Source: Trichodelitschia bisporula (lineage: Eukaryota). From it: DNA of 64,000 bases. The stretch lies in NCBI GenBank assembly GCA_010356995.1, contig ML996692.1, positions 631,933-695,932 on the forward strand, read 5' to 3'. Below the pieces are notes generated by a model. It saw only the letters and a program-made list of their open reading frames with translations. It did no database searches and was not told where the DNA came from. This document shows, piece after piece, positions 22,215 to 26,423 of this stretch (the first letter of the stretch is position 1; each line of letters opens with the position of its first letter). The position numbers were made by a program, and so were the translations under genes.

Positions 22215-24119
22215 CTAATCATCCGTCGCACCCCCAGCCCCCATAGCGACAACGCTCCTTAGCGTCCCAAACGGCAGTACGTCTGCAATCCGCTTCGCGC
22301 CCCCCAACAGCATGACCAGCCGATCAATCCCACACCCCCACCCGGCCGTGGGCGGCAGCCCCATCTCCAGCACGCGGACAAAGTACCTCTGACCCGGCGT
22401 CAACATCTCTAAGCATTTCTCAAAGTCCGCGTCCCCTGACACTACGTCAGACCCCCACCGCTGCACTGCGAACTTGCGTGCCTGCGTAAAAGGGTCATTC
22501 TCCTCTTCGTACATGTTGGCCACCTCAGTACCTGCGACAAAGAACTCGGCACGTGCGCTGACCTCGTGGTCTGTCTCACTGTCACGAAACGTCTTCGCCA
22601 ACGGCGACATGACGGCCGGATGGTGCGTGACGAATGTCGGCCCGATGCAGAGGGGCTCAATGAACCGTGCGCCTAGCGTATCGAGTAGCCGTGCTGCCGT
22701 CGGCTGCGGAGGCAGCGGCATGTCGAGCTTTGTGAACAGTGCGACAAGGTCCTCGGTCGCGGACTTTGAGGTTATGTCCCGCGGAAGCTTCCAGCCCGGA
22801 GCAACAGTTCGGAGTTGCGACATCAGAGTAGGAAGAAAAGGCAGGCGGGGAAATGAAGCAGCAAACGTGCGCTGGGGTGCGGTCAGACTGGTCAATGACG
22901 AGGCGATAAGCGTGCTTGCGCCGTCAATCAGCGTGCTATACAGCTCTTCGGTGGTAGACATAAGATCATCAAGAGTTTTGTAGGGTTGGTAGAACTCGCA
23001 TGTCGTGAACTCGGGGTTATGCGTGGCGTCGATGCCTTCATTGCGGAAGACAGGGCCGATTTCATACACAGCACCCATGTCCGCCGCAATGAGCTTCTTG
23101 AGCGCCAGCTCCTGCGCGATGCGAAGCCGCAGTGGGGAGCCCGAAAACTCGTTTGCGCGTGTCTCGAAGGGCCGAGCGACCGCACCACCTGTATCAGAGG
23201 CGAGGATTGGCGTGGTGACTTTGATAAAGGTTCGTGTGTTGAGGAACTCCTGCATCGTGCGCTCAATGTGGTGGCGCAAACGCAGAAGGTCGCGTTTCTG
23301 CTTGTTCATGGCGAGATCGAGCTGTGGGAAACGGGCCAAGGTGTCGGGGTTGATCACTGTCTGCGGAAGATCGTGCAAAGATGGGCTCAGGGCCTCAGGG
23401 ACGCTGGTGCAGTAGAGCGTAAGCTCACCAGTTGAAGACCGGATAGGTCCTCCAGCGAAAGCTGTCGCAGTGGTATCAGTAAAGCAGTTTGGTGCAGAGC
23501 ATGTGGTTCTAGCGTACAGTAATAATCGCCTTCTTTGATCATACCGCGGAAGCGCTGAAGCTCGTCGCTCGAGGCCAGGCCGCGTCTGTGGATCCACCCC
23601 AGATCACACATCACTTGAACTTTGACATCTGCATGGACAACGTCGACGAATATGAGTTTGGAACCCGCAATCCGGACACCTTTGACCTTGCCTGCACGCT
23701 GCGTTTAGCATAGCGAGTAGCAGCAAGGCGGTGCTCGTACCATGAAGTATTACAGTGTTGCTATCTGGGCGCGGATGCACTTTGCCAGCTAAGGGCATGC
23801 TATGATACTTCTCATGAAACTTGCTAGGAGGCATGATCTCGCAAGCTCCACCGAGATCATCCTTGCCATGCAATCTTGTAATACCCATTCGCGGATACAA
23901 GCTGCTAGGAAAGGCAGACTTGGGCTCAGATTTTGGCCGCCCATCCTTGAGTGCTTGCACTCTCGCCCCATATGTAACCGACGTCCAGAGCCCATCGCCA
24001 ACTGAACGCGAGTGCCGCTGTCGAACAGCATAGTAGAAGCGAAGGTACGCTGCAGGGCAGGTAGGGCGGATGTCCTTGTACAGGTAAGGTCGGAGTGTGC
24101 TACAGCTTGTGTTGGCCAT
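22215..24119 (-). CDS. MSK1: Mitochondrial lysyl-tRNA synthetase (class II)
   Basis: GGAVARPF, YEIGPVFRNEGIDATHNPEFTTCEFY and GLPPTAGWGCGIDRLVM motifs; basic presequence-like N-terminus; two introns (~23691-23739, ~23463-23518) give one continuous frame. Confidence 0.92.
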
Positions 24120-24180
24120 CTGAGAACTTAATTAGCATCTGAGCGTCTCTAGCATGCGGTAAAGAATAGAGCGTGAGAAA

Positions 24181-24270
24181 ATGTATCAGAGTGAGCTGAG
24201 TTTGGTAAAATCAGTCGCCGAAGCGTCAGTCGCAACGGTTCTAATGTTATGGATTTGATCATCATTACAT
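24181..24270 (-). ncRNA. Intronic box C/D snoRNA, snR71/SNORD29-type (LSU rRNA Am at the yeast A2946-equivalent)
   Basis: Terminal stem ATGTA/TACAT, box C ATGATGA, D' CTGA, CGC-TTCG-GCG hairpin, C'-like CTGATT, guide AAACTCAGCTCAC, box D CTGA. Lies inside a GTAAGT..GCTAAT..CAG intron at 24120-24314. Confidence 0.85.
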
Positions 24271-24629
24271 CGAGAAGGGGACAATTGAGTCGCATAGAGA
24301 GAGTGTCAACTTACATCTGATGTTAGAGCGCAGAGGTGCGCGATGAAGAATGAAGAAAGTGGAGGATGAGGTCGAGGTATTTAAGGGCCCGGCGAGGAAA
24401 AAAGCTCCGCAAGCTTGGACCTCTAAGAAATTTACGTAGCTCGCGGCGTCCGTGCGTCTCTGCCGCCACCAATTCGATAGAGATCAACCGAAAACGCGAC
24501 ATCATCATCAAGCAATTGAACAACATCCACGCCCACAGTCTGCAGCGCCATATTCGCACTCGAATCCGCCACACTTCTTTGGCCTTAGTTTTCTGTCACT
24601 CCAACCTACACAACTTTCCCACCGACATC

Positions 24630-24972
24630 ATGTCCTTCCTCTTCGGCGGCGGGCGGCCGCAGCCCAGTTCAGCGGAGAAGATTGCCGCGGCAGAGACCGA
24701 GATAGACATGGTGACCGAAATGTTCAACCGGTAGGACCTGCATTTTCTCCACATTCTTCAGCTAAGTTTACAGCATCGTGCGTTCCTGCACCACCAAGTG
24801 TGTTCAAAACGACTATCGTGAGGGCGAGCTCAACAAGGCCGAGGGTGTGTGCCTCGACCGGTGTGTCTCCAAATTCTTCGAAGTCACCATGAAGGTGAGC
24901 GAGAAGATGCAGTCGGAGGGGGCCGCGAAGGCGGCTGCTGGCGGTACTGGCGGTGGCATGTTTAGCATGTAA
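24630..24972 (+). CDS. TIM10: Mitochondrial intermembrane-space chaperone Tim10
   Basis: [34 protein letters not shown], 43-nt intron 24731-24773, twin CX3C motifs (CTTKC...CLDRC). Confidence 0.95.
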
Positions 24973-25435
24973 TGGGGGAAAACGGACTGCTTTGGGCATA
25001 TACTCGGCGTTTATGTACCTGCTACAATATGGATGGGATGGGTGATGCTTAGGGGGGCTCTACACTCTGTTTAACGATTTCATGTCTGTCCGAGCCTACA
25101 GTAGGCAGAGGTTGTCTCCTGGATGTGGATACATATCAGCCCCTACAGCTGCAGAGCTCGAGCAACTTGTCTCAGGAAATCCGAACAAGGACCAGCACGA
25201 TATCTGGTAAATTTGCATATCAGTTCACCTTATGCCCCAGCTACAACGCGCCTGCAGCAGTAATACCTATTGAGGAAGCCTTTGTGCGCGTCACAAGGCT
25301 CAAATCTCGCTTTTTAGTCTTTCCCAACATGACAAATACACCGACAGATTATCATGAAGTCAATCTTTGAGTATCATACCTGAGAAACCCAGCCAAAAAA
25401 GAAATTTGGATACCTTCGCCGAAGAGACAAAAAGC

Positions 25436-25507
25436 TGGACTCGCCGGGAATCGAACCCGGGACCATCCGCATGCTAAGCGGATATTATACCACTAAACCA
25501 CAAGCCC
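25436..25507 (-). tRNA. tRNA-Ala (anticodon AGC), intronless
   Basis: GGGCTTG/CGAGTCC acceptor stem with G3:U70, D-loop AGTGGTA, anticodon arm TCCGC-TTAGCAT-GCGGA, T-loop GTTCGATTC, downstream T5 Pol III terminator. Confidence 0.97.
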
Positions 25508-26423
25508 AATTGATGAGAGATGATTGCAAACAAAACGAATATGAGCGTTGTAAACAAATTGAGTCGGCACGACCGGGACACGTGAGCATCTGACTGCTTC
25601 GCTTCATGCAGATATACCGGCAGCGCTCACAGCTCTATCTTAAGCTGGCAGGCCAGGTCGACTTTGGAAGTTTCATGGCTGTCTCGGCTCAGCACCCTGT
25701 CGACTTCAGGCGAGCAAAAATTCTAGGCTCGGTGACTCAACAGCGCCGGGAGAGACCGGACCCAGATGAGGGATGAGATGATGATCTGTAGAATGGCGCC
25801 TATACGGCCGGAATCCCTCGGTAGGAAATGACATTCTGTTAATAATATCTATATATTTACAGTGGACCACGAGAAGTTTAGTACATGCGCCACACCGGGG
25901 AGTGTCAGTGGACACTGTTCACCCGGACGTCCATTGACTGTCAAACTCAGCCGTAGAGCAGACCTCTAGACCTAGAGCTTTAGGACGAACACCCAGAATA
26001 AAAATTCTGCCCTGTCGTCCTCCGCTTTCACTGGCTTGCTTTCTTCACCATCCCGTTCCGCAGCTTGCCTCCTTCTTTAGCGGACCCAAGTATGGAATTG
26101 GAATGCTGTCTCTTATTTGCTGCCCGCAGGGCCCACCGAAGCATTCCTGTCGCTTCCTCATGTTCCTATTTTGATATCGGAATTCCGACGGCTCCATGAA
26201 GTTGTGCGCTCCGTTTTGAGAGGTGCTTCCTCTTCGAGCAAGTGACAATTCCGGAAATTCCTAAAGTTCTGGGCCGCTGGTATCCCCCACTAGCATGGAC
26301 TTTGATATACGAGTGGCTGCTAGATAGCACTCGCAAAGCAATGGTTAAGGCTAGGTGAATCCGTATCACCGGTGGGTGGTCGGAAGATGTCCAAAAGTCA
26401 ACTATTTCGAATTTTCAGTCGTT

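What the first reader, a model, noticed from the sequence alone, without database searches (positions are those of the whole stretch)
24120..24314. Hidden box C/D snoRNA in a 5'-leader intron ending exactly at the mitochondrial LysRS start codon
Seen: on the minus strand, GTAAGT (24314) ... GCTAAT ... CTCAG|ATG (24120) defines a 195-nt intron, about four times the usual local size. Inside it is atgta-ATGATGA...CTGA-cgcTTCGgcg-aCTGATT...AAACTCAGCTCAC-t-CTGA-tacat, i.e. terminal stem, C, D', C' and D boxes. Established: the 13-nt guide pairs (one G:U) with the conserved LSU rRNA sequence GUGAGCUGGGUUU near the peptidyl-transferase centre. The D+5 rule selects the A of GAGC, the yeast Am2946 site guided by snR71 (human SNORD29). 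Inference: a guide for cytosolic rRNA methylation is co-expressed with a mitochondrial translation factor, from the short promoter shared with divergent TIM10. This would be an unusual host arrangement linking the two translation systems.
Basis: partly seen in the sequence, partly recalled or inferred. Interest (0 to 1): 0.8.

Follow-up and report, generated by a model that had tools for sequence, protein, structure and literature searches.

The report
Double-guide snoRNA upstream of mitochondrial LysRS
This is a genuine small nucleolar RNA carrying two guides for ribosomal RNA methylation, sitting in what looks like an intron just before a fungal mitochondrial lysyl-tRNA synthetase gene, which is an ordinary arrangement for filamentous fungi.

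Summary
It is the only C-box/D-box/terminal-stem arrangement in the 64-kb window; 200 shuffles gave a mean of 0.025. The RNA (24270-24181, minus strand) is a real box C/D snoRNA. Its C box and D' guide match the cloned, northern-verified Neurospora crassa snoRNA Nc CD25, which guides 26S-Am846, over 24 contiguous bases (PMC2780460 supplements). Its D guide duplicates the guide of Nc CD27/snR71/U29 (yeast Am2946) in the same register. So it is a double-guide snoRNA on the CD25 scaffold, not an snR71 orthologue. No Rfam family reaches threshold. The host is a LysRS of the type named mitochondrial in relatives. Alignment with five relatives supports the ATG at 24119. The intron has canonical splice signals and typical snoRNA spacing, but splicing was not seen. 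One RNA contig runs unspliced across the 3' splice site to 24299. In N. crassa, 45 of 55 box C/D snoRNAs are intronic, so the arrangement is not unusual. Verdict: a new member of a known kind, of modest interest.

The parts
24181..24270 (-). Box C/D snoRNA, 90 nt including the 5-bp terminal stem (92 nt, 24180-24271, if the flanking G-T pair is counted)
   Evidence: C box and D' guide identical to Nc CD25.
24259..24265 (-). C box ATGATGA
24230..24242 (-). D' guide AGAACCGTTGCGA. The fifth base upstream of D' is T 24234. Predicted target is the LSU A equivalent to N. crassa 26S-Am846.
   Evidence: The 17-mer including the D' box is identical to the Nc CD25 D' guide and box printed with its 26S pairing in Additional file 4 of PMC2780460. 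Contiguous identity with the Nc CD25 sequence of Additional file 1 spans 24 nt, 24248-24225.
24226..24229 (-). D' box CTGA
24216..24225 (-). Short hairpin CGC-TTCG-GCG between D' and C'. Nc CD25 has a different, longer hairpin at the same place.
   Evidence: compared by eye. This hairpin is not part of the computed MFE structure.
24209..24214 (-). Degenerate C' box (CTGATT; only the TGAT core matches)
24191..24203 (-). D guide AAACTCAGCTCAC. The fifth base upstream of D is T 24194. Predicted target is the LSU A equivalent to yeast Am2946 / N. crassa Am2904.
   Evidence: Target string and register come from the Nc CD27 pairing. Am2946-snR71.
24186..24189 (-). D box CTGA
24120..24314 (-). Proposed 195-nt 5'-leader intron: GTAAGT 24314-24309, CTAAT 24135-24131, CAG 24122-24120. 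GC is 0.43 against 0.53-0.55 in the flanks. It holds six ATGs.
   Evidence: Splicing was not observed.
22215..24119 (-). LysRS gene. CDS exons 24119-23741, 23691-23518 and 23461-22215 (599 codons plus stop). The two internal introns are supported by RNA contig joints.
24630..24972 (+). Divergent TIM10-family gene. Exons 24630-24729 and 24773-24972. The RNA contig starts at 24523.
   Evidence: zf-Tim10_DDP, E 7.9e-15.

Best explanation
The 90-nt stretch at 24270-24181 (minus strand) is a functional double-guide box C/D snoRNA of a Dothideomycete fungus. The 100%-identical protein for the host gene is named by NCBI as Trichodelitschia bisporula.

The D' guide is inherited from the Pezizomycotina family represented by N. 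crassa CD25. It directs 2'-O-methylation of the LSU A equivalent to N. crassa 26S-A846. The D guide directs methylation of the A equivalent to yeast 25S-A2946. In Neurospora and yeast that job is done by a different snoRNA (CD27 / snR71).

Inferred: the snoRNA lies 44 nt downstream of the 5' splice site and 49 nt upstream of the branch A of a 195-nt intron in the 5' leader of the mitochondrial-type LysRS gene. It would be released by splicing, debranching and exonucleolytic trimming. Splicing would also remove six or seven upstream ATGs, leaving an ATG-free leader joined directly to the start codon.

Sub-confidences: real snoRNA about 0.9; both guides active about 0.7; spliced intron of the LysRS transcript about 0.65.
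For: Architecture: this is the only candidate in 64 kb, against a shuffle mean of 0.025.

D' half: ATGATGATC and then 24 contiguous bases (AACATTAGAACCGTTGCGACTGAC) are identical to Nc CD25. That RNA was cloned and northern-positive, and is listed as 'Intron' (Table 1; sequence; pairing to 26S-Am846).

D half: a 13-bp duplex (one G-U) with the 26S string given for Nc CD27, in the same CAC-N-box register. Am2946 is assigned to snR71 in yeast. The same U-for-C variant of the guide (ACTCAGCTCAC-N-CTGA) occurs in boxed, stemmed snoRNA-like sequences from other organisms: 11 of the 15 metagenome matches that have R before TGATGA and a stem of at least 4 pairs. That set was chosen by the pattern, so it shows only that the variant is common.

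Intron: it has a consensus GTAAGT. CTAAT lies with its branch A 12 nt before the CAG, like the RNA-proven 49-nt intron nearby. The 44 nt from the 5' splice site fits the 41-60 nt reported as typical in N. crassa. GC is 0.43 against 0.53-0.55. The span holds six ATGs, while the 185 nt upstream (24501-24317) hold none.

Start codon: M1 aligns with the first Met of 4 of 5 relatives and with Met5 of the fifth. L9, P11 and L13 are invariant.

Co-transcription: an RNA contig that is spliced at both CDS introns continues through the snoRNA to 24299.
Against: No joint 24314->24120 appeared in either laid run. The X1 contig crosses the proposed 3' splice site unspliced and ends 15 nt short of the proposed 5' splice site. 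A transcription start near 24300 with the snoRNA in an unspliced leader is therefore not excluded. Contigs show presence, not absence. A contig across neighbouring units does not prove a single transcript.

No Rfam family reaches its gathering score. The best is snosnR61 at 19.9 bits against a cutoff of 45 (E 0.78).

Thermodynamic folding gives no support. The z-score is -0.72, and 41 of 200 shuffles fold at least as well. The MFE contains neither the terminal stem nor the TTCG hairpin. This is expected for protein-dependent k-turn RNAs, so it is neutral.

The C' box is degenerate. This species' rRNA and the rest of its genome could not be examined. The targets are therefore inferred from N. 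crassa and yeast, and whether a second Am2946 guide exists is unknown. No orthologous locus from a relative was obtained. None of the 115 metagenome loci carries the CD25 D' guide or a LysRS/TIM10 neighbour.
Confidence: 0.65

Rival explanations
1. The snoRNA is real but not intronic. Transcription of the LysRS mRNA starts near 24300, so the GTAAGT is not transcribed. The snoRNA then lies in an unspliced 180-nt 5' UTR, and is cut or trimmed out of a fraction of transcripts at the expense of the mRNA.
For: The X1 RNA contig is collinear with the genome from 23740 to 24299 and ends there. No splice joint across 24120 was seen in 2 of 2 runs laid. The N. crassa paper reports one exon-encoded box C/D snoRNA (CD6) and two H/ACA snoRNAs in 3' UTRs.
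Against: A consensus 5' splice site, branch site and acceptor flank the snoRNA at typical distances, and the acceptor abuts the conserved start codon. Six upstream ATGs would burden translation of an unspliced leader. A short first exon would be poorly represented in assembled contigs; this point is my inference about assemblers and was not tested.
Confidence: 0.2
2. The snoRNA is an independent transcription unit, or sits in the intron of a short non-coding host. It has its own promoter in the TIM10-LysRS intergenic region. Continuity with the LysRS mRNA would reflect read-through or overlapping transcripts merged by the assembler.
For: Nine of 55 N. crassa box C/D snoRNAs are intergenic with putative Pol II promoters. 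A TTAAATA element lies about 110 nt upstream of the snoRNA (read by eye). The tool warns that a contig across two units shows no single transcript.
Against: Only 61 nt separate the snoRNA 3' end from the LysRS start codon, which leaves no room for a separate LysRS promoter and leader. The acceptor CAG is placed exactly at the ATG.
Confidence: 0.1
3. A chance collection of motifs with no stable RNA.
For: No Rfam hit reaches threshold. The folding z-score is not significant.
Against: The architecture is expected 0.025 times per window. There is 24-nt contiguous identity with a cloned N. crassa snoRNA from another class of fungi. A second 13-nt guide sits in the correct register on a known methylation site.
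Confidence: 0.03

Closest known systems
Neurospora crassa Nc CD25 (EU780949; Liu et al. 2009, PMC2780460; Table 1 passages and Additional files 1 and 4 read)
   Same: The C box with its following TC is the same. The D' guide and D' box are identical over 24 contiguous nt (27 of 28 by eye), with the same predicted target (26S-Am846). Both have a hairpin between D' and C'. The size is similar (81 vs 90 nt). Nc CD25 is listed as intron-encoded.
   Different: The D-guide region is unrelated. In N. crassa that region has no assigned target; here it is a 13-nt guide for the Am2946-equivalent site. The hairpin sequence and length differ. The N. crassa host gene is not given in the parts of the paper I could read.
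snR71 (yeast) / U29-SNORD29 (human) / Nc CD27 (N. crassa): guides for LSU Am2946 / Am2904
   Same: The target nucleotide and guide register are the same (…CAGCUCAC-N-box). The guide core is the same as in Nc CD27 apart from one C-to-U change that gives a G-U pair.
   Different: There is no detectable sequence homology outside the guide. No Rfam snR71 or SNORD29 match appeared at E up to 10. In Nc CD27 the guide is at D' in the 5' half and is credited with two sites (Am2904, Cm2906). Here it is at D in the 3' half of a CD25-type scaffold.
Intron-encoded box C/D snoRNAs of Pezizomycotina in general (45 of 55 in N. crassa)
   Same: One snoRNA per intron. It lies about 40-60 nt from the 5' splice site. 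The host intron is several times longer than ordinary introns.
   Different: The host here is a mitochondrial-type aminoacyl-tRNA synthetase, and the intron lies in the 5' leader, ending at the start codon. I found no paper describing this host.
Lineage-specific target switches and redundant guides described in 'The fungal snoRNAome' (PMC5824354; abstract and passages read; supplements not readable)
   Same: A guide function found on different snoRNA families in different fungal lineages, including Dothideomycetes-specific D/D' targets.
   Different: This particular combination (CD25 D' plus Am2946 D) is not mentioned in the main text. It may be in the supplements, which I could not see.

Membership tests
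Box C/D snoRNA (class) | C box RUGAUGA near the 5' end and D box CUGA near the 3' end, joined by a short terminal stem | tested here: met
   ATGATGA 24265-24259; CTGA 24189-24186; 5 Watson-Crick pairs plus 1 G-T. Only candidate in the window; shuffle mean 0.025.
Box C/D snoRNA (class) | Internal D' and C' boxes | tested here: inconclusive
   D' is a perfect CTGA. C' keeps only the TGAT core. C' boxes are often degenerate (recalled).
Box C/D snoRNA (class) | A guide of at least 10 nt ending 1 nt before D or D', whose fifth position faces a known 2'-O-methylated rRNA nucleotide | tested here: met
   D: 13 bp to the 26S string, facing Am2904 (Nc) = Am2946 (Sc). D': a 13-nt guide that, with its D' box, is identical over 17 nt to the Nc CD25 string printed, facing Am846. 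This species' own rRNA was not available.
Box C/D snoRNA (class) | Stable ~70-120-nt RNA in an snoRNP; methylation depends on it | not testable with these tools
   Only assembled contigs of two runs could be laid.
Nc CD25 family | Sequence homology of the C box / D' guide / D' box module and its target 26S-Am846 | tested here: met
   24 contiguous identical nt, compared by eye with Additional files 1 and 4 of PMC2780460.
Nc CD25 family | Homology of the 3' half (C' to D) | tested here: not met
   The D-guide regions differ completely. Only the hairpin position and the TGAT core correspond.
snR71 / SNORD29 (Rfam families) | Match to the family covariance model | tested here: not met
   No such family is among the 5 matches at E up to 10 in 24050-24400. 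None reaches gathering score in the window.
snR71 / SNORD29 (function) | Guide selecting the Am2946-equivalent A | tested here: met
Spliceosomal intron hosting a snoRNA | Consensus 5' splice site, branch site and 3' splice site | tested here: met
   GTAAGT; CTAAT with the branch A 12 nt before the CAG; CAG|ATG.
Spliceosomal intron hosting a snoRNA | Exon-exon junction in RNA | tested here: inconclusive
   No joint in 2 of 2 runs. One contig runs unspliced across 24120 to 24299. Contigs cannot show absence.
Mitochondrial lysyl-tRNA synthetase (MSK1 type) | Class II D/K/N catalytic core with LysRS as best family | tested here: met
   Exon 3 matches tRNA-synt_2 at E 9.7e-60. lysS_bact scores E 2.4e-95 and 320 bits, below the whole-protein cutoff of 427.6 because only exon 3 was scanned.
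Mitochondrial lysyl-tRNA synthetase (MSK1 type) | Mitochondrial rather than cytosolic paralogue | tested here: inconclusive
   7 of the 120 listed relatives are named 'mitochondrial lysine-tRNA synthetase' by a source, and most others only 'lysyl-tRNA synthetase'. The best NCBIfam model is the bacterial-type lysS. No targeting-peptide predictor was available.

The most novel reading that the evidence does not exclude
In this Dothideomycete lineage the Am2946 guide has been moved onto the CD25 scaffold, possibly replacing a CD27/snR71-type gene. This would create a double-guide snoRNA whose production is mechanically tied to the mitochondrial LysRS mRNA. The leader holds six or seven upstream ATGs, so only transcripts that splice, and thereby release the snoRNA, can be translated. 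Output of a cytosolic-ribosome modification guide and of a mitochondrial translation factor would then be set by one promoter, shared with TIM10, and one splicing event.
Probability: 0.12. Interest if true: 0.5.

Novelty: new member of a known kind. Interest (0 to 1): 0.3.

Why it matters
It adds a snoRNA that no Rfam family recognises at threshold (the record's own annotation could not be read here). It also gives a concrete example of a guide function (Am2946) sitting on different snoRNA scaffolds in different fungal classes, which is useful for snoRNA family curation. The public protein model for the host gene appears to lack its first 153 codons. Neither the kind of RNA nor the kind of host arrangement is new, and no evidence supports a regulatory link between cytosolic and mitochondrial translation.

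Tried and rejected
1. Whole-genome search for this species' rRNA and for a second Am2946 guide: no genome is held.

2. RNA evidence. The look-up of sequencing runs listed no holder on record as RNA, only two 'RNA?' runs from one sample and study. Their contigs carry spliced joints, so they derive from RNA. X2 has no cover over 24093-24580; this is not interpretable.

3. Orthologous loci.
- Most hits are chance or coding repeats: an 87-nt multi-copy family and a 63-nt family.
- 15 of 121 matches have R before TGATGA and a stem of at least 4 pairs.
- None carries the CD25 D' guide.
- tblastn with the window's LysRS and TIM10 found nothing in the 115 loci.
Host synteny is therefore untested.

4. 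Earlier-findings index, by sequence, relatives, genome and words: nothing relevant.

5. Literature.
- Main-text searches found no paper with the guide strings.
- None links snoRNA host genes with fungal lysyl-tRNA synthetase; 2 unrelated papers came back.
- Supplements of PMC5824354 could not be read. They may list this family in Dothideomycetes.
- The host gene of Nc CD25 is not in the supplements of PMC2780460 that I searched.

6. Thermodynamic folding is uninformative.

The single exons were scanned by reference instead.

Full report
**Observation**

- GTAAGT lies at 24314-24309.
- CTAAT lies at 24135-24131.
- CAG ends at 24120 and is followed at once by ATG at 24119-24117.

Inside that span are, in order:
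- ATGTA, then ATGATGA (C box, 24265-24259);
- a 29-nt stretch, then CTGA (D', 24229-24226);
- CGCTTCGGCG, then A, then CTGATT (a degenerate C');
- a spacer, then AAACTCAGCTCAC (24203-24191), then T;
- CTGA (D box, 24189-24186), then TACAT.

The span is 195 nt. The three introns that RNA contigs prove in the two flanking genes are 43, 49 and 56 nt.

I scanned both strands of the window for RTGATGA followed 50-130 nt later by CTGA, with at least five directly adjacent stem pairs. This returned only this element. 200 composition-preserving shuffles gave a mean of 0.025 such elements.

**What it is**

Rfam does not recognise it. At gathering thresholds the window yields only a tRNA. A permissive scan of 24050-24400 gives five weak matches. 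The best is snosnR61 at 19.9 bits against a cutoff of 45. It spans 24183-24270 on the minus strand and reflects generic box features. No snR71 or SNORD29 match appears.

The decisive comparison came from the N. crassa snoRNA paper (PMC2780460). Its Additional file 1 prints Nc CD25. After an identical AUGAUGAUC, that sequence contains AACAUUAGAACCGUUGCGACUGAC. This is the same 24 bases as window 24248-24225. Additional file 4 shows that guide (5'-AGAACCGUUGCGACUGA-3') pairing with 26S 3'-UCUUGGCGACGCU-5' to select Am846. Table 1 lists CD25 as follows:
- cloned and northern-positive;
- 81 nt long;
- intron-encoded;
- without homologues in S. pombe, S. cerevisiae, Arabidopsis or human.

It is in fact the conserved, ancestral guide.

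**The second guide**

The same Additional file 4 shows Nc CD27, the snR71/U29 homologue, pairing 5'-UUAAACCCAGCUCACUCAGA-3' with 26S 3'-GAUUUGGGUCGAGUG-5' for Am2904. The window's D guide forms 13 pairs with that string, 12 Watson-Crick and one G-U. It has the same CAC-N-box register, so the fifth base upstream of the D box (T 24194) faces the same A. Yeast Am2946 is assigned to snR71 in the table of PMC5199042.

However, in Neurospora this guide sits at D' of a different snoRNA. The 3' half of Nc CD25 bears no resemblance to the window's 3' half. The RNA is thus a double-guide snoRNA on the CD25 scaffold that is functionally, but not genealogically, snR71-like. 'The fungal snoRNAome' (PMC5824354; abstract and passages) describes such lineage-specific targets, target switches and redundant guides as common in fungi, including in Dothideomycetes. 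Its main text does not mention this combination, and its supplements could not be read.

**Relatives elsewhere**

Most are chance hits in repeated or coding DNA.

Fifteen of 121 matches have a purine before TGATGA and a terminal stem of at least four pairs. Eleven of these use the same ACTCAGCTCAC variant of the guide. The G-U pair is therefore a common form and not a sign of decay, although the set was selected by the pattern.

Several of them (for example L013, L084, L103, L050, L068, L062) combine this D guide with a D' guide, TCACGACGGTC. This is the guide shown for Nc CD31/snR73 (Cm2917). It is a third scaffold for the same D guide. None has the CD25 D' guide. None has LysRS or TIM10 nearby. 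Host synteny could not be tested.

**The host gene**

Exon 3 matches tRNA-synt_2 (E 9.7e-60), and bacterial-type lysS is its best NCBIfam hit (E 2.4e-95). A 100%-identical 446-aa protein is named by NCBI as from Trichodelitschia bisporula. The closest relatives (about 57-60% identity) are from Venturia, Verruconis and Tothia. Seven of the 120 listed relatives are named mitochondrial lysine-tRNA synthetase.

RNA contigs prove two CDS introns, 23740-23692 and 23517-23462. With these, the ORF from ATG 24119 has 599 codons. Its first residues align with the N-termini of five full-length relatives. M1 aligns with their first Met in four and with Met5 in the fifth, and L9, P11 and L13 are invariant. 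The start codon immediately after the proposed acceptor is therefore well supported. The public 446-aa model looks N-terminally truncated.

The divergent upstream gene has a Tim10/DDP domain (E 7.9e-15). Its RNA contig begins at 24523.

**Is the 195-nt span an intron?**

In favour:
- It has a consensus GTAAGT.
- The branch A of CTAAT lies 12 nt before the CAG, as in the proven 49-nt intron.
- The acceptor sits exactly at the conserved ATG.
- The snoRNA starts 44 nt after the 5' splice site, within the 41-60 nt reported as typical for N. crassa. It ends 49 nt before the branch A.
- GC is 0.43 against 0.53-0.55 in the flanks.
- The span holds six ATGs, and a seventh straddles the 5' splice site. 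The 185 nt upstream hold none.

Against:
- Neither run shows the joint.
- The X1 contig is spliced at both CDS introns but runs collinear with the genome from 23740 to 24299. It crosses the acceptor and ends 15 nt inside the donor.

This could be retained-intron pre-mRNA, with a short first exon lost in assembly; that is my inference. It could equally be a transcript that starts near 24300. I put the intron at about 0.65.

**Mechanism**

This part is inferred from established knowledge of intronic box C/D snoRNAs. Snu13, Nop56, Nop58 and Nop1 assemble on the C/D and C'/D' motifs of the nascent intron. Splicing, debranching and exonucleolytic trimming then release the ~90-nt snoRNP. The snoRNP methylates two LSU adenosines.

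Because 45 of 55 N. crassa box C/D snoRNAs are intron-encoded, the arrangement is normal for this group of fungi. The suggested coupling of cytosolic and mitochondrial translation has no support beyond co-location.

**Verdict**

The snoRNA was correctly spotted and is almost certainly genuine. Its intronic status is probable but unproven, and it is ordinary in kind. It is a new member of a known kind, with an interest score of about 0.3.

Noticed in passing
window 22215-24119 (-): The public protein that is 100% identical to this gene's product (P0001, 446 aa) starts at an internal Met (MCDLGW...). RNA contig joints and the N-termini of five relatives indicate a 599-codon ORF starting at 24119. 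The deposited model therefore appears to lack its first 153 residues, including the likely targeting sequence.
   Followed up: partly
window 25434-25508 (-): A tRNA-Ala(AGC) gene lies about 460 nt downstream of the TIM10 stop codon (Rfam 62.2 bits; ARAGORN).
   Followed up: yes
L013 1494-1581, L084, L103, L095, L050, L068, L059, L062, L104, L015/L112: Metagenome box C/D snoRNA-like sequences that combine a D' guide TCACGACGGTC (the Nc CD31/snR73 guide for Cm2917/Cm2959) with the Am2946 D guide. They target two sites 13 nt apart on one rRNA stretch. The source organisms are unknown.
   Followed up: partly
L062 713-969 (-), L104, L064, L015/L112: Tandem copies of such snoRNAs on one short contig. 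L062 has three copies at 94-nt spacing. This suggests polycistronic snoRNA arrays in those unidentified eukaryotes.
   Followed up: no
L030, L033, L040, L045, L053, L054, L064, L098, L108, L020: Another group carries the same D guide together with a conserved D' region, GTTTCCTGTCAG(C/T)C-TGA. I did not identify its target.
   Followed up: no
L005, L009, L012, L014 and about 50 further loci (BNJS/BNJT/BNJU/BNJV contigs): An 87-nt stretch (86 nt in one copy) that matches the search pattern by chance recurs nearly identically on many large contigs. It looks like a multi-copy element or gene family and is unrelated to snoRNAs.
   Followed up: no
window 24317-24501 (-): The 185 nt upstream of the proposed 5' splice site contain no ATG on the LysRS strand (about 3 expected). 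This is consistent with their being leader sequence.
   Followed up: partly
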